A stretch of 64,000 bases of DNA from Lama guanicoe (taxonomy: Eukaryota), in the NCBI GenBank assembly GCA_013239625.1, contig MU053594.1:1678127-1742126 (forward strand), read 5' to 3'. Made by a program: the position numbers and the translations under genes. Shown here piece after piece: positions 1,306 to 20,096 of this stretch (position 1 is its first letter; each line of letters begins with the position of its first letter). The notes below the pieces were generated by a model, which saw only the letters and a list, made by a program, of their open reading frames with translations, had not been told where the DNA came from and ran no database searches.

Positions 1306-1739
1306 TGGAATCTACATCCATGACCAAGATCTCCACAACAAAGCAAAAGACAACCCCAGCTCCAAAACCAACCACAACCCGCAAACCAGCAGCCACACCC
1401 CGCAAAACAGCAGCAACACCCGGCAAACCAGCAGCCAGAACCCCCAAATCGAAATCCACACCCCGCAGACCGCCAGCCACAACCCCTAAACTGGCATCCA
1501 CAACCCGTACCACAGCCAGAACCCATACCACATCCACAAACTATACCAAACCCAAACCCCATACCATAGTCACAAACCATACCACATCCACCAACCATAG
1601 CAAACCCACACCCCGTACCACAGCCCGAACCTCAGCCCGAACCTCAGCCAATAGTTTGGCCAACACAGCCTTCCGCGGCCCCATCAGATACGCCATCCAG
1701 CTCCTGCTCGTCTTCCTCACCAGCAAACTCCTCTTCTAG
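1306..1739 (+). CDS. PLET1: PLET1-like paralogue A, terminal coding exon (Thr/Pro/Lys/Arg-rich stalk plus GPI-anchor signal); upstream exons lie outside the window
   Basis: Poly-T/cctag acceptor at 1301-1305; open frame to TAG at 1737-1739; C-terminus LANTAFRGPIRYAIQLLLVFLTSKLLF resembles the PLET1 hydrophobic tail; paralogous to exon 4 of copy B. Confidence 0.88.
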
Positions 1740-2272
1740 AAAGGACGCTACGGGAACACTTGCTTCTGCTGCCACTGCATCCTTCTATGTTCAGTTCCAA
1801 GCCAGGACTCTGACACACGTGAACAAAGCTTTACGTTCTCAGACGTCCACCTCCACTCCCGCTCCTTCAGACCAAAACGGAGACCTGAGGGTCACTCGGT
1901 GAGGGGAACAGTCCACTCAGTGGTGTTCAACTGTGTGTCTCAGGACACAAATTAGGCTTTTTGTAACTACTTAGACCTAGATTTTGGCTCCTGGCTTAAC
2001 ATGTTCACAGCCAGTTACACAGCCAGTCCAAACTTTTATTTAGATGCAACACCAGTAGCATCTGAAGGGCAAGAAAATAAGAATGTACCAGGTCTTGAGT
2101 AGTCAAGGATAGGGAAAGATCATGGTATAAAGGCATTATTTTCTGTGTCATACCAACTAAACTATACCTCAAACAAGAATAATGAATGTGTTAAATTCAA
2201 ATATGTCTTTAATGAGTGATCAATTTAAAATATAGAAAATGTCATCTAATTTTATTCATTTATGGGAGCATT

Positions 2273-2278
2273 AATAAA
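2273..2278 (+). terminator. Polyadenylation signal, PLET1 copy A
   Basis: AATAAA ~530 nt after the stop codon, followed by a GT-rich tract. Confidence 0.65.
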
Positions 2279-2539
2279 ATCAATGGAATGGTGAGAGTGT
2301 GTATGTTTTCGAAGCCAGATATAAGGGTAACATTTTCTCAATTTTAATTTTTCTCGACTGCAAACTGGTCAGTTTTCCCCTAGTGGTAATCTCCACTAAG
2401 AAACATGGGTAAAATATTTATAATATTCATAATATAACATAAAACCAAAACAAAACATGGTATTTCCAGTAATAAGTAACAAAGTTTTCTTTTAATAGCT
2501 ATGCTAAATTCCAAGATGCCAACTTCAGTGACATATGTG

Positions 2540-3180
2540 ACCCTAGTGGCTGTGAGGTAGCATCTCTACACAGTGGTATCTCTTTCTGGTTTTGATGTGC
2601 ATTTTCCTAATGACTATTAAAGTTGAGTATTTTCATCTGCTTATTTACCTTTTTTTGAAAGTTACATCATATTCATATTATACTTATTTACCATTTATAT
2701 ATCTACTTTGGAGAAAGTATTCAGATTTTAAAATTGGGATATTTGTCTATTTATTGTTGAGTTGTTAGTGTTCTTTGTATATTCTGGATACTAGGCCCTT
2801 CTCAGAAATATAATTTGCAAATATTTTCTCCCAATATTTGGGTTATTTTTTCACTTTGATAGTTGTCCTTTGAAGAACAAAAGATTTTAGTTTCGATAAA
2901 GTCCAACTTATCTATTTTTCCTTTGGTTGCTTTTGTTTTATGCATTATACCTACTAAACTGTTGCTTAATCCAAAGCCATGAAGATTCATACTTATGTTT
3001 TTGCTAGGGTTTTAAAGCATTTCGGTCATTGAGCCACCTTGAGCTGATTTTTATACGGTGTGACAGAGGGGTACACTTTCACTCTTTTGCATGGGAGTAT
3101 CCTGTTTTCCCAGCACCATTTGTTGAAAAGACTGTTTCACCCTGATTGAACTATCTAGGCACCCTTGTCAAAAATCTGTT
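2540..3180 (-). mobile_element. Old LINE-1 fragment (3' ORF2 region), continuing at ~3621-3711 and ~6817-6925
   Basis: Typical antisense L1 text (tttgcaaatattttctccca, ccagcaccatttgttgaaaagact) interrupted by younger insertions. Confidence 0.75.
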
Positions 3181-3711
3181 GTTATACAATAATCCATAAA
3201 AACACTGAATCACTATGTTATACACTTGAAACTAGTATAACTTTGTAAGTCAACTATACATCAATCTTTAAAAGTAGTTTTTTAAAAAAAGGATATGATG
3301 GGTAGAAGAATTTATAAGTTTCAAGCCAAAGTGGAGTATGGCAGTGTTTCCAAGCATACAAATTTATGATTTCATAAGAATTCCTAATTTCATAAAAGGA
3401 GTCATTGGACCAATATAGCAGCAAATTGTTTTAATTCTAGCATTCAAAATAACTTTCACTCCTTTTTGGAGCAACCTGAAGCAAAAACACTGTCAAAGAT
3501 ACATTTAGTAAATTTCATTTCTTCAGAGTCATTGGAAAAAGTTTTTTAATCTGGTATGAATCTCCTTGCAACAGAGGTTTAATCTTTCTGTAATAAAATT
3601 TATCCTTAAATGACAAAAAAGTTCATCGTAAGTATATGAGTTTATTTCTGACCTTGCAGCTCTGTTTCATTGATCTACATGTCTATCTTGATGGCAGTAC
3701 CACAATGACTT

Positions 3712-6700
3712 TTTTTTAAATTAAAGTATAGTCGATTTACAATTAGTTTCAGGTGTACAACATAGTGATTCACAATTTTTTTACACTATACTTCATTTGA
3801 AGCTATTATAAAGTATTGGTTTATTCCCTATGCTATATAGTATGTCCCTGTAGCTTATTTATTTTATACATAGTAGTTTGTACCTCTTAATCCCTTACCC
3901 CTATCGTGCCCCTCCCCTCCCCCTCTCCCCACTGATAACTACTACTTTATTCTCTTTGTCTGTGAGTCTGTTTCTGCTTTGTTATACTCATTCACTTGAG
4001 GTTTTTTTAGATTCTGCATATAAGTGATAACATACAGTGTTTGTCTTTCTCTGACTTATGTCACTAAGCATAATAAGGTCCATCCATGTTGTTGCAAATG
4101 GCAACATTTCATCCTTTTTATGGCTGAGTAGTATTCCATTGTGTATATACACCTCATCTTCCTTAACAATTCATCTGTTCATGGACACTTAGGTTGCTTC
4201 AGAGTCTTGGCTATTGTAAATAATGCTGCTATGAACATTGGGGTGTATGTATCTTTTCAAACTAGTGTTTTGGGGCTTTTTGGATATATACCAAAGAGTG
4301 GAATTGCTGGGTCATATGGTAGTTCTATTTTCAGTGTTTTCAGAAACTTTCATACTGTTTTCCACTGTGGCTACACCAATTTACATTTCTGTCAACAGTG
4401 TACAGGAGTTCCCTTTTCTCCACATCCTCATCAACATTTGTTATATGTGGTCATTTTCATGACAGCCATTCTGTCAGGTGTAGGGTGTTATCTCATTGTG
4501 CTTCTGATTTGCATTTCTCTGATGAGCAATGTTGAGGGTCTTTTCATTTCCCTGTCAGACATCTGTATGTCTTCTTTGGGAAAATGCCCATTCAGGTCCT
4601 CTGCCCATTTTTCAATTGAGTCGTTTTTTCTCTTCTTGTATTTTTTATCAATTTTTCATTTTTTTCAATCAATTTTTTCCTCTATATCTTATAGTTTTCT
4701 GAGTACAGGTCTTTTACTTGCTTGGTTATTTTATTCCCAGGTATTTTATTTTTTTGATGTGATTATCAATGGGATTGCTTTTTAATTTCTCTCTCTGATA
4801 CTTCATTGTCAGTGTATAGAAATGCGACAGATTTCTCTGTATTAATTTTGTATCTTGCAACTTTGCTGAATTCATTGATGAGTTCTGGTAGTTTTCTGCT
4901 GACGTCTTTAGGATTTTCTATGTATAGTATCACGTTATTGGCAAACATAATATACATAGTGAATTTTACTTCTTCTCTTCTGATTTGAATTTCTTTTTCT
5001 TCTCTGATTTCTGGGGCCAGGACTTCCAATACTATGCTGAATAAAAGTGGTGAGAACGGACATCCTTGTCTTGTTCCTGATCTTGAAGGAAGTGCTTTCA
5101 GTTTTTCACCATTCAGTGTGATACTAGCTGTGGGGTTCTCATACATGGTCTTTCTTATGTTAAAGTATGATTCCTCCAGACCCACTTTGTGGAGAGTTTT
5201 TACCACACATCGTTGCTGATTTTTTTTCAAAAGTTTTTTTGATACCTATTGAGATGATTACACGATTTTATTCTTCATTATTTTATTTTTTAAACATTTT
5301 TCATGAGTTATAGTCATTTTACAATGTTGTGTCACATTCCAGTGTACAGCTTCAGTTTTTTAATGTGCTGTATCACATGGATTGATTTGCCAATATTGAA
5401 TCCTCTTTGCATCCCTGGAATGAATTCCACTTCACTATGGTGTGCGATCCTTCTAATGTATTGTTGCATCTGGTTTCCTATACATTTGTTGAGGATATTT
5501 TGTGTCCATGTTCATCAGTGATATTGGCCAGTACTTCTCTTTTGCTGTGATATCTTCAGCACGTTTTGGTATCAGGGTGATGCTGGCCTTATCAAATAAA
5601 TTCAGAAGCAATCCTTTCTCTGTAATTTTTTGCAATCATTTACGAAGGATCTAAGTGTGAAATCTCCTCCAAATGTTTGTTAGAATTCACCAGTGAAGCC
5701 ATCTGGTCTTGCACTATTTTGTTAGGAGTTTTTTTTTTCTTAATTCCTGATTCAATTTCATTACTTGTAATTTGTCTATTCATGTTTCCTATTTCATCTT
5801 GGTTCAAGCTTGGGAGACTCTACATTTTGGAATTTGTCCATTTCTTCTAGGTTGCCCATTTTATTGGCATGTGGGTATTTGTAGTGATATCTTGGGATCA
5901 TTTGTATTTCTGTGGTGTTGGTTGTAATTTCTTTTTCATTTCTGATTTTATTGCCTTGGGTCCTTTCTTGTGTCCTGAGATCTCTGGCTGCACAGCCCTG
6001 GGCTTCCCAGCGCCTGTCCAGTGACCTGTAGGGCCAGGTCCTGGACCCTCTGGTGGACAGAGCCCTGTCCAGGAATGGCTGTGGGCTCTGAAGGTCTTAA
6101 AGAAGTCTGCCTGCTGGTAGGTGGGGCTGTGCCCCCACCTAGGTAGTTGCCTGGCCTGAGGTGTCCCAGGATTGGTGCAAAAGGCTGCTGGGTAGACTCA
6201 GGTCCTGGCATTAACAAGCTAGAGGGAGGATTCCACAAGGGTGTCGGCCAGTACCAATGTCCACATGGCAGAGCAAGCTCCCAGAAATGGCTTCGGCCAG
6301 TATCTGCCCCCAGAACGGACTCCAGTTGCCTCCTGCCTCTCCAGGAGTCTCTCCAAGATCACTGGGTGGATCTGACCCATTCCTTTCAAATCACTGCTTC
6401 TGCCCTGGGTCCTGGAGCATGTGAGATTTTGTGTGCACCCTTTCGGAGTGGACTCTCTATTTCCCCTAGCCCTCTTGCTCTCCTCACAGTAAGCCCTGCT
6501 GGCCTTCAAAGCCAAATGTTCTGAGGGCTTGTCTTCCCAGTGCAAGACTTCCAGGCTGGGGAGCCCAAAGTGTGGCTCAGACCCCTCACTCCTTGAGGAG
6601 ATCTGCAATTGTCGTTATTCACTCTGGGGCAAGGGTCTTCACGACTCCTCCCCTCCAACTCATCTCCTTGTGGCTCCTTCTTTATATCGTTAGTTGTGGG

Positions 6701-6816
6701 AGATCTTTTCCAGTAGCGTTCAGTCTTTCTCATCAATAATTACTCTGTACATAGCTGTAATCTTGGTGTGCCCGTGAAAGGATGTGAGCTCCTTGTCCTT
6801 CTACTCCACCATCTTT
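3712..6816 (-). mobile_element. Internally deleted LINE-1 retaining 5' UTR, ORF2 pieces and 3' tail, nested in an older L1
   Basis: ORF 4766-5230 carries RT motifs ([21 protein letters not shown]); 5' end AAGATGGTGGAGTAG on the minus strand; poly-T at ~3710; imperfect flanking duplication ccacaatgactt/ccacgctgtctt. Confidence 0.8.
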
Positions 6817-6989
6817 CCACGCTGTCTTGATTACAGTAGCTTTGTAGTAAGTTTTGAAATTTGCAAGTGTGAGTCCTCCAGCTTTGTTGTTGTTTCAAGA
6901 TCATTTTGGCTATTATGAGTCCTTTGTTGGAGTTTTCAGTATACAAGTCTTGCACTTGTTTTGTTACACTTACTCAGTGTCTTTACTGA

Positions 6990-8275
6990 ATATTTTCAAG
7001 TTCACTGATACTTTCTTCTGCCACTTCAAATCTGTTGTTAAAGTCTGTTAATTCCTTCTAGTCAACTTTTCATCTCAGTTATAGTTTTCAACTACAAATT
7101 TGCTGTTTGGTCCTTTTTCTCATTTCTGTTTCTTTACTGATACTCTTTACTTGGTAAGACATCATTCTGATACTTTCCTTTCATCCTTTAAGCATGGCTT
7201 CTTCTAGTTTTTTGAGCATATTTATAATAATTCAGCTAAAGGTTTTTCTAGTAAGTCCAAGATCTGGAGTTCCTCTGGGACAGTTTCTACTGACCAAGAG
7301 TTTTTTCCTGTACACAGACCATACTTTCGTATTTCTTGTGCGTCTTATAATTTTTATTGAGTATCGAACATTTGAAAAATACAATGTGATCACTCTGCAC
7401 ACCAGATTCCCTTCCCCCCAGGGTTGGCTGTAGTTTCCACTGGTTATTATTGCTTGTTGTTGCTGCTACTGCTGTCTGTTCAGTAAACTTTATGAATTAG
7501 TTGTCTGAAGTCAATATTCCTTATCATGTGTGGCCACTGAAGTATAGCTTAGTGGCCAGCTAATGAATAATCAGAGATTTCCTAAATGCCTTGAATCAAT
7601 AAGTCTCCCAACATTTGCCACATTCCTCTCTGCATGAATTCTGGGGCATGCCATCACTGGTCACATAGGCAGTTTACAACTCTGCCTTAGCCTACATTTT
7701 TTTACGTGCATAGCTCCGCAAGGTCAGCCAGAGATGAGACATAAGTGCTTCTCAGGTCTTTTCTGGGCATGTGTAGAGCCCCGTACATGCACATGGCCTT
7801 TCAGATTCCCAGGAATTTGTCAGAGCATTCCAAACCTCCCAACCAAGATCTCATTCCCCAGTGTTTCCTTTTACATTTTTTGTTAGTCCCAGTTGCAACC
7901 ACTGCTTCAGGCAGATGCACTGTTAAAAACTCCTCACTGATTATTTTCAACAAATACCCTAGCAATAAGTCTGTTTGCAAAGAACAAGTTCTGAAAGCAA
8001 TTTGTGGACAGGTCACATAGTGACAATTGTCTGGAAATGAGGCTTCGGGGCGAGCTCCAAACCCATTCTGTCCCTTTCCTTTTGGCTGCTACTTTGCTGG
8101 TCTTCATGGCTACCAGAGTTGCAAGGTTGTTGCTTCCTAAAGCTGCTTGAAGAGCTGGGGTGACAGGGATGGGGACAGGGCAAGTTAGAACGTCACGATG
8201 CCCACTGTGCTCGGTAAGATCCAGCAGTTTTTCTTAAACAAACATTTTTCTTCAGAGGTCCTCACTTCCTATTCC
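6990..8275 (-). mobile_element. Ancient L1 (L1MC/ME-like) 5' region
   Basis: Degenerate antisense L1 5'/ORF1 text; shares motifs (atgtggccactgaagt) with 20920-21410. Confidence 0.5.
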
Positions 8276-8823
8276 GTAAATACTTCTCTTGAAGAAACAT
8301 GCATAAATACCCTTTTGATTCAATTCTACGTGTTTTTGTTTTCTTTCTATTCAGAAAATAGAATACTTCTTTCCTCTTTCCTCCTTCAGTGAGTGGATTA
8401 AAATCACAGAAGAGATATGAGAAAATACACTTTCTGATTTTTTCAACTAGTTTCTTTGTGTTATGGTGTTTATAGTGAAAAGTGTCAGGCAGGAGCAAGA
8501 TGGACCAAAGTCATTTCTTTCCAAGGAAATAAATATCAATCCAGAACCACAATCTTTCCAGTTTGGTGCTAGTCACAAAATGAACCAGGTTAGGGAACAT
8601 GTTTGATAAAGAAGAACTGGAAAAGGATGTATAATGTTCCATGAGAACAAGGGCTTTTATGCCTGAGTTTCCCACAGGGAACAGAGTGGAGATTCTAAGC
8701 AGGCCAGGTATGAGATGATTACTCAACTCTGGATTTCACTTTGCCGGCATTCACCCTTCTCATGGCTTTCTTCACATACCAAATGCTGAGCTGACGGAGA
8801 TGCTAATAAGTCCATGACCAGTA

Positions 8824-9003
8824 CATTCCCCCCCGTCCTGGGCCAATCTGGAACTGATAAAGGATCATGGTGGCAGATACTGGGAGATTCATTCCTAGTG
8901 ATAACTTAGGCCAAATTCCAGAAGCCAGTTCATTTTAGGGAGGAGTGCAAGGGAGATTTGCCTGTATGATGTCACCCAGAAGATCCAGCCCAGAGCATAT
9001 AAA
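8824..9003 (+). promoter_or_regulatory. Proximal promoter of PLET1 copy B
   Basis: TATAAA at 8998-9003, ~60 nt before the ATG; CRE-like TGATGTCA at 8967-8974; TGATAA at 8855 and 8899; CATTCC at 8824 and 8890; CCAAT at 8843. Confidence 0.55.
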
Positions 9004-9063
9004 CAGGTGAGCTGTAGACCTTACCCAGTCCCAGGTCCAGCAGTTTCCAAACAGACCAAGACC

Positions 9064-9247
9064 ATGGCAGTCCTTGGTTCCCCACTGCTGCCCCTGGTGC
9101 TGTCTCTGTGCCTCGGACTGCTGGTTCCTTCGGCCAAGTGTCAGTATCCTATCGGCAAATGCATAACACTGAGTAACATCATCGCTGCCACTGATGGGGG
9201 AGTCCAGGCCTTCCCAAAGAGCTATAAAAGCAACACAATGTACACAG
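9064..9247 (+). CDS. PLET1: PLET1 copy B exon 1 (signal peptide MAVLGSPLLPLVLSLCLGLLVPSA...)
   Basis: Strong Kozak accATGG; hydrophobic leader; donor G|gtgagt. Confidence 0.92.
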
Positions 9248-12200
9248 GTGAGTAGAAGCCATCTTCTCTGCTGTCCTTGGTTCTCTGAGGTGAGGTAGCC
9301 AGAATTCTGGAACGTATCCCCTTCCATCGCTGCTTTCAACTACACAAGCAAAGCACGTGTTTTTGACTTGGATGGGACATAGAAACGGGGAGACTGAGAA
9401 CATGGAAGCGAATGGATGGGATGGGGCGGCCTCTGCAAGTTCCCTGTGTGACCTTGAGTATATCCCAGATCTCAGTGTAGCCGATTCCGTGTGAGGGCAC
9501 AACTGCGGCAAGGTGTCTGACTTCAGTAAGTTGGGCTTTGTCACAAAAAAACCTTACAACAGCCTGTGTCGGGCAGGGGTGGGGGTCATCTGTGTTATTT
9601 TCAGGGATAATAAATGCACCGCAGTTGGTAGCTCTTTCCCATCCACTTGATAGGCAGTGCCACCGTGGATGACTGTATACTGCTCAACGTTAGAAGGCAC
9701 TGCTCACACTTAGGCTATGGGTGAAAAATCTGGTGAGCTAGACAGGGAGGGAATTACTCTCCCAACGCAAGTATGAGCCTGAAGCTGAGAGAAGTGAAAT
9801 GACTTTCCTGGGGTCTCACGGCTGGTAAGCAGCAGAGCTGGCCGGATGGCAGATCTTACTCTTTTTGTTCCTAATCCAGTGCTTTTTTGAGGTGCTTAGA
9901 AATATTTTATGAATATTCCTTTGGGATCAGTCAAGCCTACATGTCAAGGCAAGTGCTGTCTAATGACTTTCTTAATAACAACAAATTTAATGTGGCTGTT
10001 TACAGGGACTAGTGCATTGAGTCCTCCTCGACCTTCAAGGTAGATAATGTTGTCATTCCCAGTTTGTGGATGAGAAAACAGAGGCACAGCTGTTAGTACC
10101 TCGCTAGGTCACAGCTACTTGAGTGATGGACCAGGCCCTCAGAGACCCTGCTCGTGGCCAAGACACGATTTGCCTCTCAATTACAGTAATGAGAGCTAAG
10201 ATTTCTTACTGTGGTGTGGGCTGATCCAAGGGCAAATGCTATTGTCTGCCCCATTTTGCAGGTAAGAACTGAGGCATAGGGAAGTTAAAGTTTTACCCAA
10301 GGTCACTAGCAGTTAGCAGGTAATATTGGAACCTAAAACATACCCAAGGTTTGTCCAGCTTTACCCTGCCAGGCTGTCCAGCTTCAGAGCCTACCTTCTC
10401 GTCTGCCATATTACCCTGCCCGGCTTAGAACTCGGAGAATTTCAGGATGACATCCACACCCAGGCTCTACACACTGCAGGCTTCAGCATAAGCATGGCTA
10501 TGGCCTGCCTTCGCACAGTCATCCTGGCTTGTCCTGGTTTCCATTTTCTCGTGGGGAGTGTCACTGTGTGTCTCAGTTGGGATGGGGCTCCCTATGACCC
10601 ACTCCTGCAGACAGCAGGTCTTGTCCTAACCAGGACAGGGAAGATAAACTTGTAATTCAAGATGAGAGGACCATCTTGTATGATCTTGTATACAGGGAAG
10701 GACCTGGGTGGTCTGAGGGACTACTGCAAAAGACACCTCAGACCTCTGACTTAAGATAACATATCACTAAGTGATGGATTTTGTGGCTGAAATGGAAGAG
10801 AAAGAAACCTATCTTGGGAAGATGTGGGAGGGGGGGCAGTGGAGCCTCTTTACAGTAGGAAGACATGAGAAAGAAGAATCAAAAGCCAACACACCAGACC
10901 CCTCGAGGGGACCGTGCTAGATGAGAAGAGAAATCACGCCATTTACACAGGGGTTGATTGCAGCAGAGTTTCAGGAAGGGGAAGGAGGAGAGGAACCATG
11001 GTTCCCTGAATGGCTACTATGTGCCATGCACTCCCCAAAACCTCATTTGACTTCATCTCAGCAAGAAATGTGCTAACGCTCTGGGATAAACTGATTTGCT
11101 ACAGGAATCATTTAGTTGAGACTCAAAATCCTGTATTCTGGGTGATGGGAAGGGCCTGATCCCACACCTGGAATTACACAACAGGCTACATGATTTCCTG
11201 GCAGACTGTCATTATCGGACCTGGCTGGGACTTGGACTATTGCAGAGACTGAGTAAATGCCCACACAGGCCAACAACTTTCCCTGATTTTAAAGTTGAAT
11301 TTTTTTTTAATTTCAAGATTTGTGTTAAAATTGGTATAAATGACATATATAAATGGCTTCACAGGTTCTAAGACACAAGTGCAGCTCAGGCAATATCTTA
11401 GAACAGGTTCTCTGGGTATGCCTTGGTATCAGTCAAAGAAACTCGTAATGCAGTAGCATTCCTATTACAGCTGTGCCGGGTAAGCGCCTGCCTCCACTGT
11501 TTAACTTCCATGGGCCAGAGAAATGTAACTTGCTTGCCCTTCTCCCTGAACCCTCATATTTAAGGCACTAAGCAACATCGGATGCACAACCTTTTTTTCT
11601 TTAACATCAACCAATGAATAGTGACTTAGTGCCTTCCAGGTGCCCAGCACTGGGGATAGCCAGATACTGACACACATGAAATGACAGCATATAGTACAAG
11701 CCAGAACATAATTGAGTCCTCAACTCAAGTAAACATAAGTAAATGAATAAATGATCCAGGAGTGAGAGGGCAAGAGGGCTGAATTGGCCCAGAGGCGGGA
11801 TCTTGGAGAGTCAGTGGGGCTGGGATTCGTGATGAGAAGGAAGGAAGGATTCCAGACAGGCACCCGACATGAACAAAGGCCAGGGGCAGGCGAACCAGGT
11901 GCGTCTGCAGAACCAGACAAGACGGCCACCCCTAGAGTGGGGGTGCGAAGAGCAGAGTGAGCCGGCTAATGAGGCTCATGAGAGCCATGTGTACTGTAAT
12001 TAACACAACAGAAGCAGAAATGTAAAACCAGAAATGTTTAGAGGCTCTAAAATACAAGGGCAGGCACGTCGAAGGTTTTGGACAGCTGTGGGTCCTGATG
12101 GAAGTGTTGGCTGGGGAAATCTGATCTGGTTGCAACCTGGAGGGAGGAGACTGAGGAGGCCAGGAGGAGTGAACAGAGCATGTAAGCCAGGGAGAAGGGA

Positions 12201-13624
12201 ACAGAACAAAGGACAGAGGCAGGAGCATGCCTGTGGGAGAGCTGACAGGATTGATGACTATCTGCATGACACGTCCCTTGTCACCATCCACCTCACCATC
12301 GTGCACACATCCAGGACAGATGCCAGGTTCTGGCTGAGCAAGTCAGGGCCCCGGGGATCTGGCTCAGATACCTTGATTGGCAAACACAAACAAGCAGAAC
12401 AGAGAAATGTTTCATACTAACGACAACAATCGAGATTTATCTGACACCCACCCAGATTCAAGTCTTTACACACTTCTCTTTACTCTTCCCAGGAAACTTT
12501 CAAGATAACGTATCCTGATCTCCATACACTGAGGGATAATGTCGTTATCCTCAGACCTAGAACCAACCCTTGTGCAAAGTGCACACTCAGTAAATATTTG
12601 TGGAGTGAGTGATGAACAGTAAAGAAACCAAGGATCAGAGGGGAAGTGACCTGGCCTTAAATGTTAGAACTAGAATTCAGATCCAGGACTGTCTGATCCT
12701 ATTCTGCGACACAGTCAGTTTTCTTTGCTTTGTGAAGAAGACTTTCAAGGAGTTTTGGGTGGCTGAGAGGGCCCTAAAGACTACCACCTGAGCACTGAGA
12801 GATTTGTTCAGAAAGGATCTTCTAAGGGAGGAAATGGACAAACTGAAATATTCTCTTGAAATCCCCTACCCATTACACCTTAGAATGCTGAAGTAACCAG
12901 TGGAATTAACAAGTGTCAGCGGGGTCCCCGTGAGCGCATACTAAGCTAGGTCATCAGACTAGAGGGTTCAGGGAACCCTGAGTGGTTATTTGACCCGTAC
13001 TTAGATTAGTGCCTTTGGGGCTCAGAGGCCCTGCCTCCTTCTTCCCTCAGCCTCAACAACAGAGACCAAGAACATCAGCATTTCTGGGACCAAAAAAAAA
13101 CCAAAAACACTTGCCTTGGCTTTGACTTGGCAGTAATGGTCCCTTATTTCATGAAGCACTTCCCAGGGGAGCCCACTTGACCCTTTCACAGGCATCGACC
13201 CCTTCTCTCCCCACACTCCACTCCCCCTGAGAGAAGGGCAGAGCTCTCATCTTGAGCAGGGCTCAAGAGGTTAAAAGCCAGCCAGGATCTCATCCCTGCT
13301 ATGCAGCAAAGCAGAGTATAGGTCTTCTGTTGTCCAACTTCTCCACCTTTTTCTGGAGAAAACTTGGAAAACAGACACACACAAAAACAGCTAGGGGGGA
13401 AATAAAAATCATTTATCATCCCACTCACAAGAAATCACCATAGTTAATATCTAGATGTATTTATTCCCTTCCAGATTTTTTGCAACTTCTTTTATAAGAA
13501 TGGGACCTTACTATACGTACATATATTTGTAACTTTTTTTTTCACACTTCATTTTGATTTCATGACCCTCATCTCTTGTCTTACGGCACAGATGGTTCAT
13601 TGTTTCCTTATCATTTCCTACCAG

Positions 13625-13823
13625 TAATAGTGCCTGTGACTGACAACACTGAAGCTGTGATCATCCGAGCAATGTACAACATGCACCCAGTAGGCTTCTG
13701 GAAAGATGTAGACAAGAATTGTACAAACAGTGTCATGTACGAACTGAAGAACCCACGCATGAAATGGTTCAAGACAAGATGGGTATCTCCTGGGGACATG
13801 GACCTATCCTCAGTCCAGCTACA
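13625..13823 (+). CDS. PLET1: PLET1 copy B exon 2
   Basis: ccag acceptor; VPVTDNTEAVIIRA...GFWKDVDKNC...RWVSP resembles PLET1; donor CA|gtaaga. Confidence 0.92.
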
Positions 13824-14066
13824 GTAAGAACCTGTCCATGTATCATTCGCTTTGGGCTTTTGCAATTTCATATTGGGTTTCTGCAGTTTTATACTGACCT
13901 TGGAGGACTCATAATACAACCCCGATGTGACGTGGAGGATTCAGTAGCTGCACTCCTTTTCCACCTCCCCATTCTTTGACTACTTTTATCTATAGGAGTT
14001 TCTACACTATACATGTGCACACACGCACACATACCACGTATGCTCTGCACCAAGAGAAAGAACTGG

Positions 14067-14547
14067 TGTTAAATAAAACCAGAACCAGACAGTTGCTAAA
14101 GCAAGATGAGTGAATGAACCAATGAATGAATGAATAAAAACAGATTTTATTCAGGACTATTGCAATTAAGACAAGAGACCTCAGTATAGAACAAGTCTCA
14201 ATGCTGAATGCAACATGGGTAAGTGGGGATTTACAGCCAGGGAACAGGGTAGGAGTGTCAATGGATAGGAAAACACTAAAAGGAAACATCAAACCCTGTA
14301 AGGGGGACTCTCGCCAAACTGACCTAACAGGATTCTTGCTGAAGACAGGCCAGGGTGATCCCAAAGTAGACGATGAGAAACTCAATCAGATAATAAAAGT
14401 GATCAGCTATCGAGGGTGGGAGGTTCGTGTTATACTGACTTAACAGGATTCTGGCTAAAACTGGATTTTCCAAGGAAGTACACAGATGGGCCTAGGAGAA
14501 CGTTCCAGACTCCAACTAAACTTTGGTCAAGCAGAGAATCCTTGTCA
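14067..14547 (-). mobile_element. Solo ERV1-class LTR (MER31-like)
   Basis: TG...CA termini; 4-bp target-site duplication CTGG on both sides; minus strand begins TGACAAGGATTCTCTGCTTGACCAAAG. Confidence 0.8.
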
Positions 14548-14825
14548 CTGGCACCCTGTTTGTTTCAAATTCTCTTTACCCCTTCCCACCCCAACCCAAC
14601 TCACTCCTGCTAGTCTGGGGCAGACAGTACTCCAGAGCCAGGCAGGGCAAACAGCAGTGACAAACAATTAAAAATAAAAACACTCTGGTACTGAAGACAC
14701 CTGGCCACCTTGGAGCTCCCCTCTCTGCCTTCTCCACTGCAGTCCTCCAGGAGCCCTTGCTAAGCTAGGGTGCAGAGAAACTGCCTGTGGCCAAGAACCT
14801 GGGGGAGGGGTGCTCTTGGTCCCCA

Positions 14826-15560
14826 TGTTTACCAAGTCAAACTTGAATCCGCTTGCCCACTGAGCAGCAGACTCAATTTACTGACACCAGGTTGTGGTGA
14901 AGGAAAGTACAGCATTTATTGCAGGCACCAAGCAAGCAGAATGGGCAGCTCATGCTCAAAAGACATGAGCTCCCATCAGCTTTCTGGGCAGCTCTTATAA
15001 AGGCTACATTTGTGGTGAGGATGCAGGGGCCATGACTTTCTTCTGATTGGTTGGTGATGTTGTAACAGGATGATGTTTCACAAATTGTAAACATCAGTCT
15101 TCCGATCCCACCCAGTCCGGGGTCTGTGTGCTTATGCTCAGCATGTAGTCACTGTCCTCCACCTGGGTCTTACTTCCTGCAAAACAACTCAAAGATCTGT
15201 GTCACATTATTATCGATAACCCTCGAGGAGGAACCAGAGCTCTGTTTTATCATGGAACTATTGTTTCTTGACTACTTTGCCTTTGTTTCTGCACTCCTTC
15301 ATTTCCCTCATTAGTAACTGCTTGAGTCTGCTCTTTGGAACTCAGGGTAAGCTTAGGAGACTAACGCTTTTCTCTACAAACAAGAAATGGGGAGACACAG
15401 AGGGGCTTTTGTACCAGGGAGGGCCCCACAGGGTCCTGCTTGGATTCAGTTTCCCCTTTTCTTTGATGCTCCTCAATCCTGAGGGGAACAGGGGATAAGA
15501 AAGAGGATAACGTTCTAAGCAGAGAGTTTAATCATAAACTCGGCAGAGGAATTCACTTTT
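14826..15560 (-). mobile_element. ERV1-class 3' LTR (14826-15448) with adjoining polypurine tract and internal remnant
   Basis: Minus strand reads AGAAAAGGGGAAAC then TGAATCC..., ends in CA at 14826, and has an AATAAA near 14915. Confidence 0.7.
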
Positions 15561-17290
15561 AGGGGGACCTGGTTTCACCACCACATGAAGAATCATGTTT
15601 TTCAAACACATGCATTTTGGAAGTGGCTTGCTGGCAGAACGTGTGGTGATTGTGTAATAAAACTGGCTTCCTAGTGTTACACAAAATGGACACATTCAGA
15701 TTCCGCGCTGAGGCCACCTGAGGGCTCATGTTACATGCTAACAACAACAACAACAAACTTCCCTCCCAGCTAGGGATTTGTTATCAAATTCACTTTAGGA
15801 AGCAAAGGTTGAGAGATCCTTACACTTTGACTGCCGTTTTGTTCTGAAAGGGCAGGTCTCACCATCGGAGCCGTGTCCATTACGAGCAGCCACCAGGGGT
15901 CGAGGGACATTGGAGATAATGATGCAGTCAAGCCTCCCCACCCTCTGCTGCCACGCCCTGCGCCTGGTGGAACCTAGCTGGCTCTGAAGGAGGAACTGTT
16001 ATGCCCACAGACAGACGTGCAAGAGTGGAATCCAAAGGAAGCTGCTACAGTCCAGCCTCACAATGACAGCAGGCTCTTACTAGCCAGTCAGGACTCATGA
16101 GGGCAGTGACTTTCCTTTCATCTCACCTCCTTAAGGCCTCCACACTCCACGCAACAACAGATAAAAGACCACAGAGTGACAATCTGCAATGGAAACACAT
16201 TCCCACTGACAGGGCAGTCTCCAGACCCCCCCTCACTCTCACCACGATGATGCACTGGCTCCTCTGCTTCTTTACCGTGCACAACAAGGCTGACACCTGG
16301 AGGGGAGCAGCATACAGGATGGGAGAGCCCCTTCTGTGGGGTAGGGCACAAAAGGGCATATGAAGAGGTTCCTGCCCACAGAGCTTCACAGTGAGGTGTA
16401 GGGAGGCAAGGCCCATGGAGAAGTAAATACTCAGGTTAGACAGCACCTCCTCAGAAAGAATCCTCTAAACTCCCAGATCAACTCCCGGCTTCCTGTTTGC
16501 TCTCTCTCATAACTTCCACTGCTTCATCAGAGCGCGTATCACAATGGTGATCAGTTACTTAACTTGTTGGTCGATTATTTGTTTAAAATCTCCCTCTCTA
16601 AAGGGACTTTAAGGGCCATCAAGGAAAGAAGCATGCCAGTGTTCACCAGCGTCCCCTTAGCACCAAGCACAGTGACTGGCATGTCGTCCACTCACGAACT
16701 GTTAAATGAACAAGAGACTGAACGGGCCCACTGACAGAAGAGCAACACACCAAGCTGCACCGCTCGTTTAATGGCCATTAAGTACCTGTGACACTACGTG
16801 TCAGGCATTGTGGACAACAGAACCTGCCCTCAAGGAGCTGGTCCTCCAGTGCGAGGAGAGGCTGATGGCAAAGCAATGCAGCACAGGGGCATGTCTGTCT
16901 GATGGAGATCTATCTGGGTTCATGATGATAGGGAGAAATGACTTCCCAGAGGTTACTGATGAGTCTGTAGGCAGATGTTCCCTGGGCCGGATTATTACGA
17001 TCAGAAAGACTAACCCGAAGGAAGACCAGAGGTGTATACCAGCCTGTGGGGAGTTCAGGGTGCTGGCGTGGGTGGGGGTGGGGGATGGACATGGCCTTGT
17101 CTGGAGCAAGATCATGAAGGATCTTGGTCAAGACAATATAGAGCAGACCAGGACTTATGATCTGCTAATTGTGCTGTAGAGAATGTAGGCACAACAGCAA
17201 TTAAGGGCTGGGGTCTGCTGGCAAGGCAGCAACTGTGAAATGAACTTGTGAATTCCTCACCATTACCTCTCATTTATTTGCCCTCCACAG

Positions 17291-17352
17291 AACCTTCACT
17301 GTCGATTCGCAAAAAGTGGCTGCATTTTCTACCCAGGATCTGATGAGAAGAG
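17291..17352 (+). CDS. PLET1: PLET1 copy B exon 3 (QTFTVDSQKVAAFSTQDLMRR)
   Basis: ccctccacag acceptor; G|gtaagt donor; 62 nt keeps the frame; resembles the PLET1 QAFTV segment. Confidence 0.9.
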
Positions 17353-18123
17353 GTAAGTTCCTCTGCAGCCTATTTCCGTATCTGGCAGTGAAATCAATCA
17401 GCCTGGAAAATTATTTTGTGGGTGTCCTAGCAAAACAGAGTCTTCTAGTCATGTGTTACCCAGATACCAGCTGAGGCTCCTAGCACCTTGAGATTGGCAT
17501 AAGATTAGCTCGGCCCCTTATCCTGTGCCCTGTGCAAAACAAAAGCCATCCCCCTCCCCACCCCAACATTTCTGCCAATTCTGAGGGGACTCTGAGTCTC
17601 TCAGTCACCTTGACTCCGGACTCTGGCTCAGGACCCGTTTCCAGTCAACACCACACAGACGTGGCTATGAGAGTCGGCTGCTCCCTCAGTTTCCACAAAG
17701 AATTCCCACTCACACAAAGCCTTCATCGGTGGAGCAGGTGTTACCGAAGGGCTTATGCGATGAGAAGGGAGATTCGCACAAAGAAGGGCTGATAGCACAG
17801 AAAACCAATCATTTCACTAGTTCTCGGAGTAGCCTCTGGCCTCCAGCACCACCACCAGGAAATCCCACTGGCCTTTCCCAGGCTGCAGTCCCCAACTTCA
17901 AGCCATCCTGAGGCTCCTTGTCCCTTGTCTCCCTTCTCTGCCCCTTTGCTTCTCTCTTGTCTCTTTCTGGGGAGCTAAAACAAATTCAAGGAACTGAGGT
18001 TCAGAAAAGACTGGTAACTTGCTTAAGACCACACAGAAAGTAAATGGCAAAGCTAGGACTCAAATTCCACATCTTATACTTTTTTCCACTTTTCTTTGAC
18101 TAACATGAAAACTATAAAGACAG

Positions 18124-18125
<2 letters not shown>

Positions 18126-18166
<41 letters not shown>

Positions 18167-18188
18167 TGTGTGTGTGTGTGTGTGTGTG
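18126..18188. repeat. (GT)n microsatellite in PLET1 intron 3
   Basis: Direct reading. Confidence 0.95.
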
Positions 18189-19455
18189 GTGTTTAAATAC
18201 AAGCTTTAACCAAGAGTAAGAAACATTAGTCTTTCTCCATGACCAGATAATAGATCTTCCTCACGAGCCCCCAAACTCTGAAGTACATCTAGTGTGCTGC
18301 TCAATTTCCTGTCAGTCAAGCATTGCAAATGTGGTCAAAGGCTTATCGATTTTCAACAACAAATGTGAAAGTGATTATGCCTAATGAAACTATTATGTGA
18401 ACGCCTTAAGTGTTTCCTTGGTGGTTTCCCCTCTGTGAAAAGACAGACATTATTTTCTTTCTCCAGGACATTTTCAAAAGGAACACTGGTATAAATGGTA
18501 GGAAAGAAAAAAACAAAGTTTGTTTCTGGTCAGAACTCCTTAGCTCCATGCTAATAAAATCCAGATTTAAAAAGAGGAGACAGAGAAAAAGAAAGTGGCT
18601 GTGTTCAGACTTTTGGCTCAGGGGTGGCCTAGAGGAACACCTGCCCTGGGGAAATGTTCCACGAGATAAGATCCTGCCACAGAGCTAGAAGGCGCCCTGC
18701 AGGGGGACAGGGTGCACAGGCTGGAGCAAATCACTGCACATTTCCTGCCTTCTTCCTTATAGTCCCCTCTGTGGTTCACTCAGACCCTTGGAGGTGTCAT
18801 GGCCAAGCTCTAGTTTTCCAAGATCAGACAGCCCCCCAGGTTTGGCTTTCTCTGCTTCTCCGCCAGGCAACCTCAAAACGCTAACATGTGGTCAGATCCC
18901 TGTCTGTGAAAATGACCAGTCTCTCAGACACCACAAAAAAGAGATTCGCAGGTTGGACGGGGCCTCTTTCCCCTTCCTTTAAAGCAGAGGTGGCCGTCCT
19001 TGGGTCTGGATGCTGTCTATTTCTTACCACTTTTACATGCAACCTTTGAAATGAGCAGAGAAACCAAAGACCAAAAAAGAAAAAGCATTCAAGTGTACCA
19101 CTCTGGACCATGTTTGCACTGATTGATCCAATGTAATACTAAGAACATGAGGACATCTGAGGGCAGACTACCTACCTAACAACAAACTCAGTAGTCATGT
19201 AAATTCAGTGTAAGTTCCTTCTCCTGTAGGGCTGTGCAGAGCTTAAGGGTAGATTGTTTCTTATTTTTGGTTCCTTGACATCCTGTGCCCTCCTAGTTTC
19301 CCCGTCCTCTACACACTCTGAGCCCTTGAGAAGTGCTTACTGAGTTTTGCTCATGAACTCTGGCTCCAGCATCCTATCCGATTAGTCTCCTCTCTCCAGT
19401 GTGCACCTGCCACCCAAAAGAGGTTCTGATGACATTGTTTTTTCTTTTTCCCTAG

Positions 19456-20096
19456 TGGAAACTACATCCATGACCACGACCTCCACAACCAAGCCAGTCG
19501 CAACCCCAGCTCCAAAACCAGCCGAACCCTGCAAACCAGAAGCCGCAACCCGCAATCCGGCAGCCACTGTTCCCATGCCGGCAGAACCAATCCCCATACC
19601 ACCAGTGACATCCTCCATACGGGCATTCCTAATCCCACCCAGAAACCGCAAACCGGCAGCCACACCCCGCAAACCAGCATCCACACCCCGCAGACCCGCA
19701 GCCGCACCCCGGAAACTGGCAGCCACACCCCGCAAACCGGCAGCAACACCCCGCAAACCATCACCCACACCCCGCAAACCATCACCCACACCCCACAAAC
19801 TGGCAGCCACACCCCGCAAACCGGCAGCCACAATCCCACAACCAACAACCACACCTCGTACCACAGCCACAACCCACACCACATTCAAAGACCGTAGCAC
19901 ACCCAGAACTCACACCAGAGCCACTCCCCCTACCACATCCACAAAGCGTACCAAACCCTCACCCCGTACCACAGCCCGAACCTCAGCCCCAGCCCAAACC
20001 ACAGCCAATAGTTTGGCCAACACAGCCTTCCGCGGCCCCATCAGATACGCCATCCAGCTCCTGCTCGTCTTCCTCACCAGCAAACTCCTCTTCTAG
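19456..20096 (+). CDS. PLET1: PLET1 copy B exon 4 (cationic Thr/Pro-rich stalk plus GPI signal)
   Basis: cctag acceptor; open frame to TAG; C-terminal signal identical to copy A. Confidence 0.92.
19662..19829 (+). repeat. Coding 21-bp minisatellite, 8 units of the TPRKPAA-type heptad
   Basis: Unit acaccccgcaaaccggcagcc repeated with few changes; decayed units on both sides. Confidence 0.9.

What the first reader, a model, noticed from the sequence alone, without database searches (positions are those of the whole stretch)
1306..20001. Divergence confined to the coding stalk while flanking intron and UTR are nearly identical
By eye, the ~1.29 kb of intron differs by one substitution (~935) plus changes in the poly-T tract, and the ~0.89 kb of GPI signal, 3' UTR and flank differs by one (2125/20482). 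In contrast, the first 45 nt of the exon carry 9 substitutions changing 6 amino acids (S>T, K>T, I>T, Q>P, K>V, T>A), and the stalks differ by 207 nt without frameshift. Neutral duplication predicts the reverse pattern. Inference: older paralogues whose flanks are homogenised by gene conversion while selection keeps the stalks distinct, or exchange of stalk cassettes among array members.
Basis: partly seen in the sequence, partly recalled or inferred. Interest (0 to 1): 0.88.

Follow-up and report, generated by a model that had tools for sequence, protein, structure and literature searches.

The report
Gene-conversion mosaic in duplicated camelid PLET1
Two neighbouring copies of the placental surface-protein gene PLET1 in a camelid keep copying stretches of DNA from each other, so their introns and tails are almost identical, while the protein-coding stalk and other outer parts of the protein stay very different, a known evolutionary pattern seen here in a gene where it had not been described.

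Summary
Between the two copies the last 1,305 nt of the intron differ by 2 substitutions and 1 indel. The 888 nt of GPI signal, 3'UTR and flank differ by 1 substitution. The 334-nt stalk carries 60 substitutions plus 207 nt of in-frame indels (Fisher p=4e-51).

The gene is PLET1, tandemly duplicated with an ~18.8-kb unit and only two copies in the assembly. Both paralogues exist in Camelus, so the duplication predates the camel/llama split.

The stalk is not unique. The whole unit is a mosaic of 13 difference-free tracts of 300 nt or more between blocks about 6.8% diverged. The end of exon 1 and exon 2 are also divergence islands, with dN/dS 3.2.

Best reading: recurrent interlocus gene conversion, with peaks of divergence over the mature-protein coding parts. 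The stalk is a coding minisatellite whose heterology blocks conversion. Selection is suggested but not proven.

Cassette exchange is not supported.

The parts
1..1305 (+). Copy 1 (upstream PLET1 paralogue, type 1): last 1,305 nt of intron 3. It starts in a (GT)n run directly after a 3,937-N gap. Near-identical tract with copy 2 (2 substitutions + 1 indel).
1306..1739 (+). Copy 1 terminal exon 4 coding part: stalk codons 1308-1646, C-terminal hydrophobic GPI-type signal 1647-1736, stop 1737-1739.
1311..1644 (+). Divergence island in copy 1 (type-1 stalk): 60 substitutions against copy 2. Degenerate 21-nt (1372-1507), 18/54-nt (1498-1631) and 12-nt repeats.
1645..2532 (+). Copy 1 GPI-signal codons, 3'UTR and downstream flank up to the end of duplication unit 1. 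One difference from copy 2 (2125).
2533..2539 (.). 7-nt filler at the junction between tandem unit 1 (window -16255..2532) and unit 2 (2540..20889).
2540..20889 (+). Duplication unit 2 (type-2 PLET1 gene). It aligns to unit 1 as a mosaic of difference-free tracts between blocks about 6.8% diverged. The tracts are 5734-6774, 7020-7621, 7734-8181, 8874-9210, 10666-11004, 11552-12393, 12423-13095, 13113-13432 and 13849-14267.
9064..9247 (+). Copy 2 exon 1 (signal peptide and N-terminus). The first 146 nt are identical to copy 1. Then comes a 24-nt island with 9 differences (AFPKSYKSN against ANPDIYEND), followed by identical intron.
13625..13823 (+). Copy 2 exon 2, inside a diverged block (13433-13848). 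Exons 1+2 together have 29 nonsynonymous and 3 synonymous differences from copy 1.
15849..15974 (+). Alternative terminal exon used by the RefSeq model XP_031531376.1 (169 aa). That model lacks stalk and GPI signal.
17291..17352 (+). Copy 2 exon 3 (62 nt). The copy 1 counterpart lies in the N gap.
18126..18189 (.). (GT)n microsatellite in intron 3 of copy 2. The alignable near-identical tract starts inside it, and the assembly gap of copy 1 ends in its counterpart.
18150..19455 (+). Copy 2 intron 3, last 1.3 kb: near-identical tract.
19456..20096 (+). Copy 2 terminal exon 4: type-2 stalk (182 aa, Pro 23%, Thr 23%), GPI-type signal identical to copy 1 (30 of 30 codons), stop 20094-20096. The four exons give an open 361-codon frame.
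19461..20001 (+). Divergence island in copy 2 (type-2 stalk): 21-nt repeat array 19646-19855 (8.9-9.9 units, including an exact tandem duplicate at 19746/19767). A 138-nt block (19519-19656) is absent from copy 1.
20002..20889 (+). Copy 2 GPI-signal codons, 3'UTR and flank: near-identical tract that ends at the duplication boundary.

Best explanation
The window holds the 3' end of one PLET1 gene and all of a second. PLET1 (placenta-expressed transcript 1) encodes a GPI-anchored surface glycoprotein. The two genes are products of an ~18.8-kb tandem duplication that arose in the camelid lineage before camels and llamas/alpacas split.

Since then the copies have repeatedly exchanged short tracts by interlocus (non-allelic) gene conversion. 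This leaves a mosaic: tracts of about 0.3-1.3 kb with zero or nearly zero differences, alternating with blocks about 7% diverged.

The intron 3 end and the GPI-signal/3'UTR segment are two such recently converted tracts. The stalk between them was not converted. It is a coding minisatellite of 21-, 18/54- and 12-nt units that has diverged about 19-20% at reliably aligned positions and by 207 nt in length. Heteroduplex extension coming from either side therefore stops at its edges (inferred).

Conversions that would erase the paralogue-specific mature protein are probably also selected against (inferred). The grounds are that the other divergence islands also sit on mature-protein codons, and that nonsynonymous divergence exceeds both synonymous and non-coding divergence.

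Shown: the duplication, its age relative to Camelus, the mosaic, the repeat structure, and the excess of nonsynonymous change. Inferred: the conversion mechanism, the heterology barrier and the selection.
For: Gene identity:
- phmmer with exon 2 finds 18 proteins. All 17 looked up that carry a source name are PLET1 or a camelid PLET1 paralogue model.
- The C-terminus ...LLVFLTSKLLF is conserved across orders.

Tandem duplication:
- Unit 1 = -16255..2532 and unit 2 = 2540..20889.
- There are only two copies of exon 2, exon 4 and the flanks in the 2.05-Gb assembly.

Age:
- C. ferus has PLET1 and PLET1-like on one contig.
- The window's copy 1 stalk is 79% identical to Camelus PLET1, against 44% for copy 2. 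Copy 2 exons 1-2 are 95-98% identical to Camelus PLET1-like, against 75-85% for copy 1.
- In the tree, the camelid clade has support 100/100 and copy 2 + Camelus PLET1-like 99/96.

Mosaic:
- 494 substitutions sit in 7,236 nt of unconverted blocks (6.8%), beside 5,021 nt in nine difference-free tracts.
- Counting the two flanks, there are 13 runs of 300 nt or more, the longest 1041, 934 and 842 nt. Under random scatter the longest run averages 183 nt, and 69 of 10,000 permutations have any run of 300 nt or more.

Species-wise identity of converted coding parts:
- The first 49 residues and the 30-residue GPI signal are identical between the two copies here. Camelus type 2 differs at 3 of 49 residues, and Camelus type 1 at 1-2 of 30.

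Stalk:
- TRF arrays are found in both copies. 21-nt units are as alike between copies as within them.
- The collinear register of 1508-1632 gives 80.8% identity, against 64.8% or less for any shift, so about 19% real divergence.

Selection hints:
- Exons 1-2: 29 nonsynonymous against 3 synonymous differences, dN/dS 3.2, Fisher p=0.05.
- Pooled nonsynonymous against synonymous: p=0.03. Nonsynonymous sites against unconverted non-coding: 13.2% against 6.8%, p=6e-6.
- Copy 2 stalk: biased A/T-to-G/C change, 31 against 12, p=0.005.

Against collapse:
- The flanks still differ at isolated sites, and no extra diverged flank contig exists.
- The assembler kept a 355-bp unplaced contig that is only 0.6% different from copy 2 intron 1.
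Against: - No read-level check was made.
- Copy 1's terminal-exon contig begins right after a 3,937-N gap, in a microsatellite. The 5' limit of the intron tract and copy 1's exon 3 are therefore unseen, and local mis-assembly or gap-filling with paralogous reads is conceivable.
- No Camelus or other lamine DNA could be fetched. The decisive flank-versus-stalk tree test rests only on 49 + 30 amino acids.
- Stalk dN/dS is not significantly above 1, and exons 1-2 reach only p=0.05.
- Both flanks being equally young (about 0.1%) requires either two recent events or one discontinuous tract.
- The transition:transversion ratio in the diverged blocks is 252:242. That is lower than I would expect for neutral mammalian divergence (expectation recalled) and is unexplained.
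- No protein model anywhere contains the type-2 stalk, so its expression is unproven.
Confidence: 0.68

Rival explanations
1. Assembly artefact. The near-identity of the flanks, and of the other difference-free tracts, was produced by collapse, gap filling or polishing with reads of the paralogue. The real copies would be several percent apart everywhere.
For: - A 3,937-N gap ends exactly at window position 1, inside a (GT)n run.
- The locus is a tandem repeat and hard to assemble.
- No reads could be laid.
- The k-mer shares of 0.93-0.95 in 14 runs cannot tell the two flanks apart.
Against: - The flanks are not perfectly identical: they differ at 935, the poly-T tract, 1299 and 2125. A contig used twice would be identical.
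- Neighbouring blocks at 7-10% divergence were resolved cleanly within the same gap-free 64-kb stretch.
- No leftover diverged flank contig exists in the assembly, although a 0.6%-different 355-bp allelic contig was kept.
- Identity tracts end within a few nucleotides of coding islands that are conserved in Camelus. An assembler has no reason to produce that.
- Erasing differences by polishing is only plausible where divergence was already low, so the mosaic would remain.
Confidence: 0.13
2. No conversion barrier by selection and no old stalk difference. A very recent re-duplication or a single long conversion made the whole 3' end identical, and the stalk then diverged explosively through minisatellite instability alone.
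For: - The stalk is built of tandem units.
- 21-nt units are interchangeable between copies, and one unit is an exact tandem duplicate.
- 63 of the 207 nt are whole 21-nt units.
Against: - The type-1 stalk is already present in Camelus with the same C-terminal half: 4 of 54 residues differ, against 26 of 54 between the two types here.
- The non-repetitive first 45 nt carry 9 substitutions, and copy 1's residues there match Camelus type 1.
- The collinear register of 1508-1632 is clearly best, so its 19% divergence is substitutional.
- Sixty substitutions cannot accumulate in the time that gave 3 in 2,193 flanking nucleotides.
Confidence: 0.06
3. Cassette exchange. One stalk was imported from another member of a larger PLET1 array, or from a segregating haplotype that is not in this assembly.
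For: - The boundaries of the diverged segment are sharp on both sides.
- The 3.9-kb gap and the unplaced contigs show the assembly of this locus is imperfect.
Against: - Only two places in the whole assembly match exon 2, exon 4 or the flanks.
- Each stalk type is linked to the matching exon 2 type, as in Camelus.
Confidence: 0.05
4. The flanks are identical because strong purifying selection conserves an intronic or 3'UTR regulatory element in both copies.
For: The 3' tract includes the GPI-signal codons and the 3'UTR, which are plausibly constrained. The GPI signal is conserved across mammals.
Against: - 99.9% identity over 1.3 kb of intron and beyond the likely poly(A) site to the very end of the duplication unit is far more than constraint usually gives.
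- Nine further difference-free tracts lie in introns and upstream sequence.
Confidence: 0.03

Closest known systems
Red/green opsin genes of Old World primates: 'peak of divergence' under gene conversion. Teshima & Innan 2008, as described in the review PMC3924837 (passages read).
   Same: - Tandem paralogues about 20 kb apart and older than the species compared.
- Introns are homogenised by frequent interlocus conversion.
- A coding segment between them stays diverged, so exons group by paralogue and introns by species.
   Different: - In opsins the peak is two known spectral-tuning residues in exon 5. Here the largest peak is a 113-182-codon repetitive stalk with a length difference, so a mechanical heterology barrier may suffice.
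- No functional difference between the PLET1 copies is known.
- The intron-by-species tree is not yet shown here at the DNA level.
Mosaic divergence in tandem paralogues from interlocus gene conversion: HMA4 model, bioRxiv 10.1101/2025.10.29.685298, and GOT1 paralogues in Tigriopus, PMC3728101. For both I saw only the search listing and the start of the abstract.
   Same: Alternating converted and unconverted tracts along tandem copies. Islands of divergence are read as candidate targets of selection.
   Different: Different organisms and genes. I did not read their methods, so no quantitative comparison was made.
PLET1 of mouse, a GPI-anchored, N-glycosylated trophoblast surface protein with a long anchored and a short soluble isoform. 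PMC4848516 (passages read).
   Same: - Same gene family by sequence.
- Signal peptide, conserved two-cysteine ectodomain, variable Ser/Thr/Pro stalk and conserved C-terminal GPI-type signal.
- A short model without the anchor also exists for the camelid copy 2.
   Different: - Two tandem paralogues in camelids. Among the representative proteins I retrieved, no other species showed two paralogue types, but copy number in other mammals was not surveyed.
- Camelid ectodomains sit on a long branch (stem 1.13).
- The copy 2 stalk is 182 aa and proline-rich.
Human fetal globin genes HBG1/HBG2, where a (TG)n run in intron 2 bounds the converted tract
   Same: A tandem gene pair with a converted tract whose visible edge lies at a GT/TG microsatellite in an intron (18126-18189 here).
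   Different: Here the true 5' edge is hidden by the assembly gap in copy 1, so the microsatellite may be only where the assembly broke.
Exon-sized conversion between MUC5AC and MUC5B, noted earlier in this same genome (earlier finding e1-7858877).
   Same: Interlocus conversion between neighbouring paralogues of glycoprotein genes in the same camelid genome.
   Different: There a coding exon is homogenised. Here coding parts escape and non-coding parts are homogenised. I did not re-test that finding.

Membership tests
PLET1 (placenta-expressed transcript 1) genes | Sequence homology of the ectodomain to named PLET1 proteins | tested here: met
   phmmer with exon 2 found 18 hits at E<=0.001. 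All 17 that were looked up and carry a source name are PLET1 or camelid PLET1 paralogue models. Invariant C33, C94, W87 and W114 appear in a 15-sequence alignment. There is no Pfam family: 0 real hits for 20 ORFs, only one chance-level match at E=0.24.
PLET1 (placenta-expressed transcript 1) genes | C-terminal hydrophobic GPI-attachment-type signal after a Ser/Thr/Pro-rich stalk | tested here: met
   Both copies end ...ANSLANTAFRGPIRYAIQLLLVFLTSKLLF, which aligns with the conserved ...LLVFLTSKLLF of other orders. GPI attachment itself is known for mouse Plet1 (PMC4848516). It is not testable here.
PLET1 (placenta-expressed transcript 1) genes | Intact four-exon open reading frame with canonical splice sites | tested here: inconclusive
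   Copy 2: exons 9064-9247, 13625-13823, 17291-17352 and 19456-20096 give 361 codons with GT/AG borders. Copy 1: exons 1, 2 and 4 are open, but exon 3 lies in the N gap.
PLET1 (placenta-expressed transcript 1) genes | Conserved neighbourhood (PTS and BCO2 next to PLET1 in human 11q23; the order is recalled) | tested here: inconclusive
   Three minus-strand ORFs at 63.7, 53.0 and 45.9 kb match Pfam RPE65 at collinear profile positions 5-40, 101-144 and 264-308. That fits a carotenoid oxygenase such as BCO2. PTS exons were not found by Pfam.
Interlocus gene conversion with a selected peak of divergence (opsin type) | Paralogues older than the species split being compared | tested here: met
   Both types are present in Camelus. 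Orthology of each type is shown by identity and by the tree.
Interlocus gene conversion with a selected peak of divergence (opsin type) | Identical tracts longer and more numerous than chance allows | tested here: met
   13 runs of 300 nt or more were observed. 69 of 10,000 permutations gave any such run, and the longest permuted run was 477 nt against 1041 nt observed.
Interlocus gene conversion with a selected peak of divergence (opsin type) | Flanks group by species while the peak groups by paralogue | tested here: inconclusive
   The peak groups by paralogue. For the flanks there is only coding evidence: the N-terminal 49 aa and the 30-aa GPI signal are identical between the paralogues here but differ from Camelus at 3 and 1-2 residues. 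No Camelus DNA was available.
Interlocus gene conversion with a selected peak of divergence (opsin type) | Evidence of selection at the peak (dN/dS above 1 or a known functional change) | tested here: inconclusive
   Exons 1-2: 3.2 (p=0.05). Robust stalk codons: 1.7 (p=0.28). Pooled: p=0.03. Nonsynonymous sites against unconverted non-coding: p=6e-6. No functional data exist.
Interlocus gene conversion with a selected peak of divergence (opsin type) | Pattern verified in raw reads or independent assemblies | not testable with these tools
A metagenome pattern scan gave 0 hits.
Coding minisatellite / mucin-like stalk | Tandem units with period a multiple of 3, differing in number between copies, rich in Ser/Thr/Pro | tested here: met
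   21-nt units: 6.5 against 8.9-9.9 copies. There are also 18/54-nt and 12-nt units. Composition is T 31% and P 14% in copy 1, T 23% and P 23% in copy 2. O-glycosylation is not testable.
Cassette exchange within a multigene array | Three or more members, or a separate donor cassette | tested here: not met
   There are exactly two matches for the flanks, exon 2 and exon 4 in the assembly.

The most novel reading that the evidence does not exclude
Camelids evolved a second, neofunctionalised PLET1. The type-2 copy underwent a burst of adaptive amino-acid change in its ectodomain before camels and llamas split. It acquired a stalk about 60% longer and proline-rich. It is actively kept distinct from its neighbour against a continuing flow of gene conversion. 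This would make it a lineage-specific cell-surface glycoprotein of the placenta or uterine epithelium, shaped by maternal-fetal or pathogen conflict. The sharp conversion boundaries would map the selected parts of the protein to within a few nucleotides.
Probability: 0.3. Interest if true: 0.55.

Novelty: new member of a known kind. Interest (0 to 1): 0.4.

Why it matters
PLET1 is an orphan-fold surface protein needed for trophoblast differentiation in mouse (PMC4848516, passages). I found no paper that mentions it together with alpaca (0 papers). The 3 papers holding both 'PLET1' and 'camel' are, by their titles, on unrelated topics.

If the pattern is real, the conversion mosaic acts as a natural fine-scale map of which parts of the two camelid paralogues must stay different: the end of exon 1, exon 2 and the stalk. 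It also maps which parts may be shared: the signal peptide, the first 23 mature residues and the GPI signal. That gives direct targets for expression and binding experiments in a group with an unusual diffuse epitheliochorial placenta (placenta type recalled).

It is also a caution for annotation. No public protein model contains the type-2 stalk, and trees built from introns or UTRs would wrongly date the duplication as very recent.

Tried and rejected
Reads:
There is therefore no depth, variant, junction or splice evidence.
- The look-up of sequencing runs: RNA-type runs X15 and X17 held 0.26 and 0.23 of the words of window:45-2700. The 14 DNA-type runs at 0.93-0.95 show only that such sequence exists in other data sets.

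Independent DNA:
- A metagenome-contig scan with a 34-nt pattern from the GPI-signal codons gave 0 matches.

Protein searches:
- A search for a type-2 stalk model found only the two Camelus type-1 proteins at 60% identity.
- The N-terminal stalk part with 'longer' lengths found none.
- P0001 with 'longer' lengths found none. The tool itself calls these weak evidence.

Families and structure:
- Pfam on 20 ORFs gave no family.
- AlphaFold2 of P0019 with 15 sequences gave mean pLDDT 56.6. The model is beta-rich but too uncertain, so I ran no fold search.

Earlier notes:
- There is nothing near the window, by sequence or by words.

Literature:
- One search was badly posed (any 2 of 6 terms) and returned only general camelid papers.

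Ideas rejected:
- The window starts at a contig start because of a false haplotig duplication. Rejected because the units are 6.8% apart and both types occur in Camelus.
- CpG decay explains the stalk divergence. Rejected because 36 of 60 changes are transversions.
- The stalk reflects the true, much older duplication age. Not favoured, since dS in exons 1-2 is only 0.034. It is not excluded.

Full report
**What is there**

The window is a camelid sequence (earlier notes). It lies at G000:C1244:1678127-1742126.

- A phmmer search of 1.84 billion representatives with the 66 residues of the upstream exon 13625-13823 gave 18 hits at E<=0.001.
- All 17 that I looked up and that carry a source name are 'placenta-expressed transcript 1 protein' or camelid paralogue models.
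- The 169-aa Vicugna pacos RefSeq model matches copy 2's exons 1-2 at 100%.
- Pfam has no family for any of 20 ORFs tried.
- An alignment of 15 PLET1 proteins shows a conserved two-cysteine ectodomain, a stalk that cannot be aligned between orders, and a conserved C-terminal hydrophobic tail ...LLVFLTSKLLF.
- Mouse Plet1 is GPI-anchored and N-glycosylated, with a long anchored and a short soluble isoform (PMC4848516, passages).
- Downstream on the minus strand lie three collinear RPE65-family exons. This fits the recalled human order BCO2-PTS-PLET1.

**Anatomy**

Self-comparison of the window plus 30 kb fetched upstream shows one tandem duplication.
- Unit 1 is window -16255..2532 and unit 2 is 2540..20889, joined by 7 nt.
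- Copy 2 has four exons with canonical borders: 9064-9247, 13625-13823, 17291-17352 and 19456-20096. They give an open frame of 361 codons.
- Copy 1's exons 1, 2 and 4 are open.
- Copy 1's exon 3 lies in a run of 3,937 N that ends exactly at window position 1, inside a (GT)n run.
- The whole 2.05-Gb assembly holds only these two copies of the flanks, exon 2 and exon 4. There is no larger array.

**The observation**

It is correct in every detail.

| Segment (copy 1 coordinates) | Length | Differences from copy 2 |
|---|---|---|
| End of intron 3, 1-1305 | 1,305 nt | 2 substitutions, 1 single-base indel |
| Stalk, 1311-1644 | 334 nt | 60 substitutions, 207 nt of in-frame insertions (138+42+21+6) |
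| GPI signal, 3'UTR and flank, 1645-2532 | 888 nt | 1 substitution |

- The contrast between stalk and flanks gives Fisher p=4e-51.
- No other 334-nt window of the unit exceeds 38 substitutions.

**The wider pattern**

The stalk is not the only diverged segment.
- Over the 12.3 kb that can be aligned upstream of the gap, the units are 94.7% identical on average. The differences are strongly clumped.
- Nine tracts of 320-1,041 nt have no difference at all. The blocks between them carry 494 substitutions in 7,236 nt, or 6.8%.
- With the two flanks there are 13 difference-free runs of 300 nt or more. When the 545 difference events are scattered at random, the longest run averages 183 nt. Only 69 of 10,000 permutations show any run of 300 nt or more.
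- Coding sequence sits at the edges of this mosaic in a telling way:
  - The first 146 nt of exon 1 (signal peptide and the first 23 mature residues) and about 190 nt upstream are identical.
  - Then come 9 differences in 24 nt (AFPKSYKSN against ANPDIYEND).
  - After that the intron is identical again for about 95 nt.
- Exon 2 lies in a diverged block (13433-13848).
- Identical tracts are more GC-rich (0.466) than diverged blocks (0.397).

**Age**

- Camelus ferus has both a 'PLET1' and a 'PLET1-like' model on one contig.
- Copy 1's stalk is 79% identical to Camelus PLET1, against 44% for copy 2. Its exon 2 end is 87-93% identical, against 80% for copy 2.
- Copy 2's exons 1-2 are 95-98% identical to Camelus PLET1-like, against 75-85% for copy 1.
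- A maximum-likelihood tree of 14 ectodomains puts the camelid sequences together (100/100). It joins copy 2 with Camelus PLET1-like (99/96). The type-2 stem is long (0.20) and the tips are short.
- So the duplication is camelid-specific and predates the camel/llama split. Both stalk types, at least type 1 demonstrably, are old.
- By contrast, the segments that are identical here differ from Camelus. There are 3 differences in the 49 N-terminal residues (type 2) and 1-2 in the 30 residues of the GPI signal (type 1).
- That is the species-wise grouping expected after conversion, but it rests on few residues.

**The stalk itself**

- TRF finds degenerate 21-nt units: 6.5 copies at 1372-1507 and 8.9-9.9 copies at 19646-19855. 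It also finds 18/54-nt and 12-nt units.
- In register, 21-nt units differ as much within a copy (5.8 and 4.6 of 21) as between copies (5.0). Copy 2 holds an exact tandem duplicate.
- In that array, positional homology is therefore ambiguous. Unit gain and loss explains 63 of the 207 nt and makes about 25 of the 60 substitutions alignment-dependent.
- The rest is real divergence:
  - The non-repetitive first 45 nt carry 9 substitutions.
  - A 138-nt block of copy 2 has no counterpart in copy 1.
  - The collinear register of 1508-1632 gives 80.8% identity, against at most 64.8% at any shift.
- Real divergence is thus about 19-20%, roughly three times the unconverted background (binomial p=4e-6).
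- Changes from copy 1 to copy 2 are biased A/T-to-G/C (31 against 12, p=0.005). Copy 2's stalk is richer in proline (23% against 14%).

**Selection**

| Comparison | Result |
|---|---|
| Exons 1-2 | 29 nonsynonymous, 3 synonymous; dN/dS 3.2; Fisher p=0.05 |
| Whole alignable stalk | dN 0.25, dS 0.22 |
| 61 robustly aligned stalk codons | dN 0.233, dS 0.139; p=0.28 |
| Pooled nonsynonymous against synonymous | p=0.03 |
| Nonsynonymous sites against unconverted non-coding | 13.2% against 6.8%; p=6e-6 |

The last test assumes that the non-coding blocks have the same age, which earlier conversions may violate. I regard selection as likely for the ectodomain and open for the stalk.

**Mechanism**

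The best reading is recurrent interlocus gene conversion between tandem paralogues, with peaks of divergence over mature-protein codons.
- This is the situation described for primate red/green opsins (Teshima and Innan 2008, via PMC3924837, passages).
- It is modelled as 'mosaic divergence' for tandem paralogues (bioRxiv 10.1101/2025.10.29.685298 and PMC3728101; listing and abstract starts only).
- For the stalk, the length difference and about 20% divergence should by themselves stop heteroduplex extension from either flank. Two independent recent tracts, or one discontinuous tract, then end at its borders. This step is inferred.

**What remains open**

All public runs found are stored as contigs. 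A metagenome scan for independent host DNA found nothing.
- Arguments against an artefact are indirect:
  - Isolated differences persist in the flanks.
  - There is no spare diverged flank contig.
  - A 0.6%-different allelic contig was kept apart.
  - Tract borders coincide with coding islands that Camelus shares.
- No public protein model contains the type-2 stalk, so its use in mRNA is unproven.
- The structure model was too uncertain to use (pLDDT 56.6).
- A transition:transversion ratio of 252:242 in the diverged blocks is unexplained.

**Verdict**

The first interpretation, old paralogues with conversion-homogenised flanks, is supported. Selection is plausible but unproven, and cassette exchange is rejected. 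This is a clear new example of a known process, in a gene family where I found nothing in print about it.

Noticed in passing
window 19433-19897 and 1208-1489 (+1 frame of exon 4); P0004, P0006, P0008, P0018: Exon 3 is 62 nt, so skipping it reads the stalk in another frame. That frame stays open for 154 aa in copy 2. Models that read this way (His/Asp/Asn-rich tails without the GPI signal) are annotated in bear and Hipposideros isoform X2 and in Miniopterus, and P0004 (source name not looked up) reads the same way. The stalk may be dual-coding.
   Followed up: no
window 15849-15974: The V. pacos RefSeq model XP_031531376.1 splices copy 2's exon 2 to an alternative last exon here. This gives a 169-aa protein without stalk or anchor. 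It is reminiscent of the short soluble mouse isoform (PMC4848516).
   Followed up: partly
G000:C1244, window -3936..0: A run of 3,937 N ends exactly at window position 1, inside a (GT)n run. It hides copy 1's exon 3 and the 5' edge of the near-identical intron tract.
   Followed up: partly
window 2540-14796 versus unit 1: The 494 substitutions between the units are 252 transitions and 242 transversions. That is an unusually low ratio for mammalian non-coding divergence (expectation recalled). In the stalk it is 24:36.
   Followed up: no
L003 = G000:C40494:1-355: An unplaced 355-bp contig is 99.4% identical to copy 2's intron 1 (9276-9630) and 90.4% identical to copy 1. It is probably an allelic leftover of this locus.
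   Followed up: partly
window 45898-46209, 53040-53369, 63705-63998 (minus strand): Three collinear exons of an RPE65-family carotenoid oxygenase (Pfam PF03055). By recalled synteny this is probably BCO2. The CpG-rich stretch around 32-33 kb (GC 0.51) may be the PTS promoter, which was not tested.
   Followed up: partly
Camelus models P0001, P0011, P0020, P0023: The Camelus type-1 models start at an internal Met of exon 2, and the type-2 model stops at the end of exon 2. Both camel paralogues are therefore only partly annotated, and no full-length camelid PLET1 model was found.
   Followed up: partly
tree: The camelid PLET1 clade sits on a very long stem (1.13 changes per site) relative to cetaceans, carnivores, bats and pangolin. 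The ectodomain therefore changed fast in the camelid ancestor even before the duplication.
   Followed up: no
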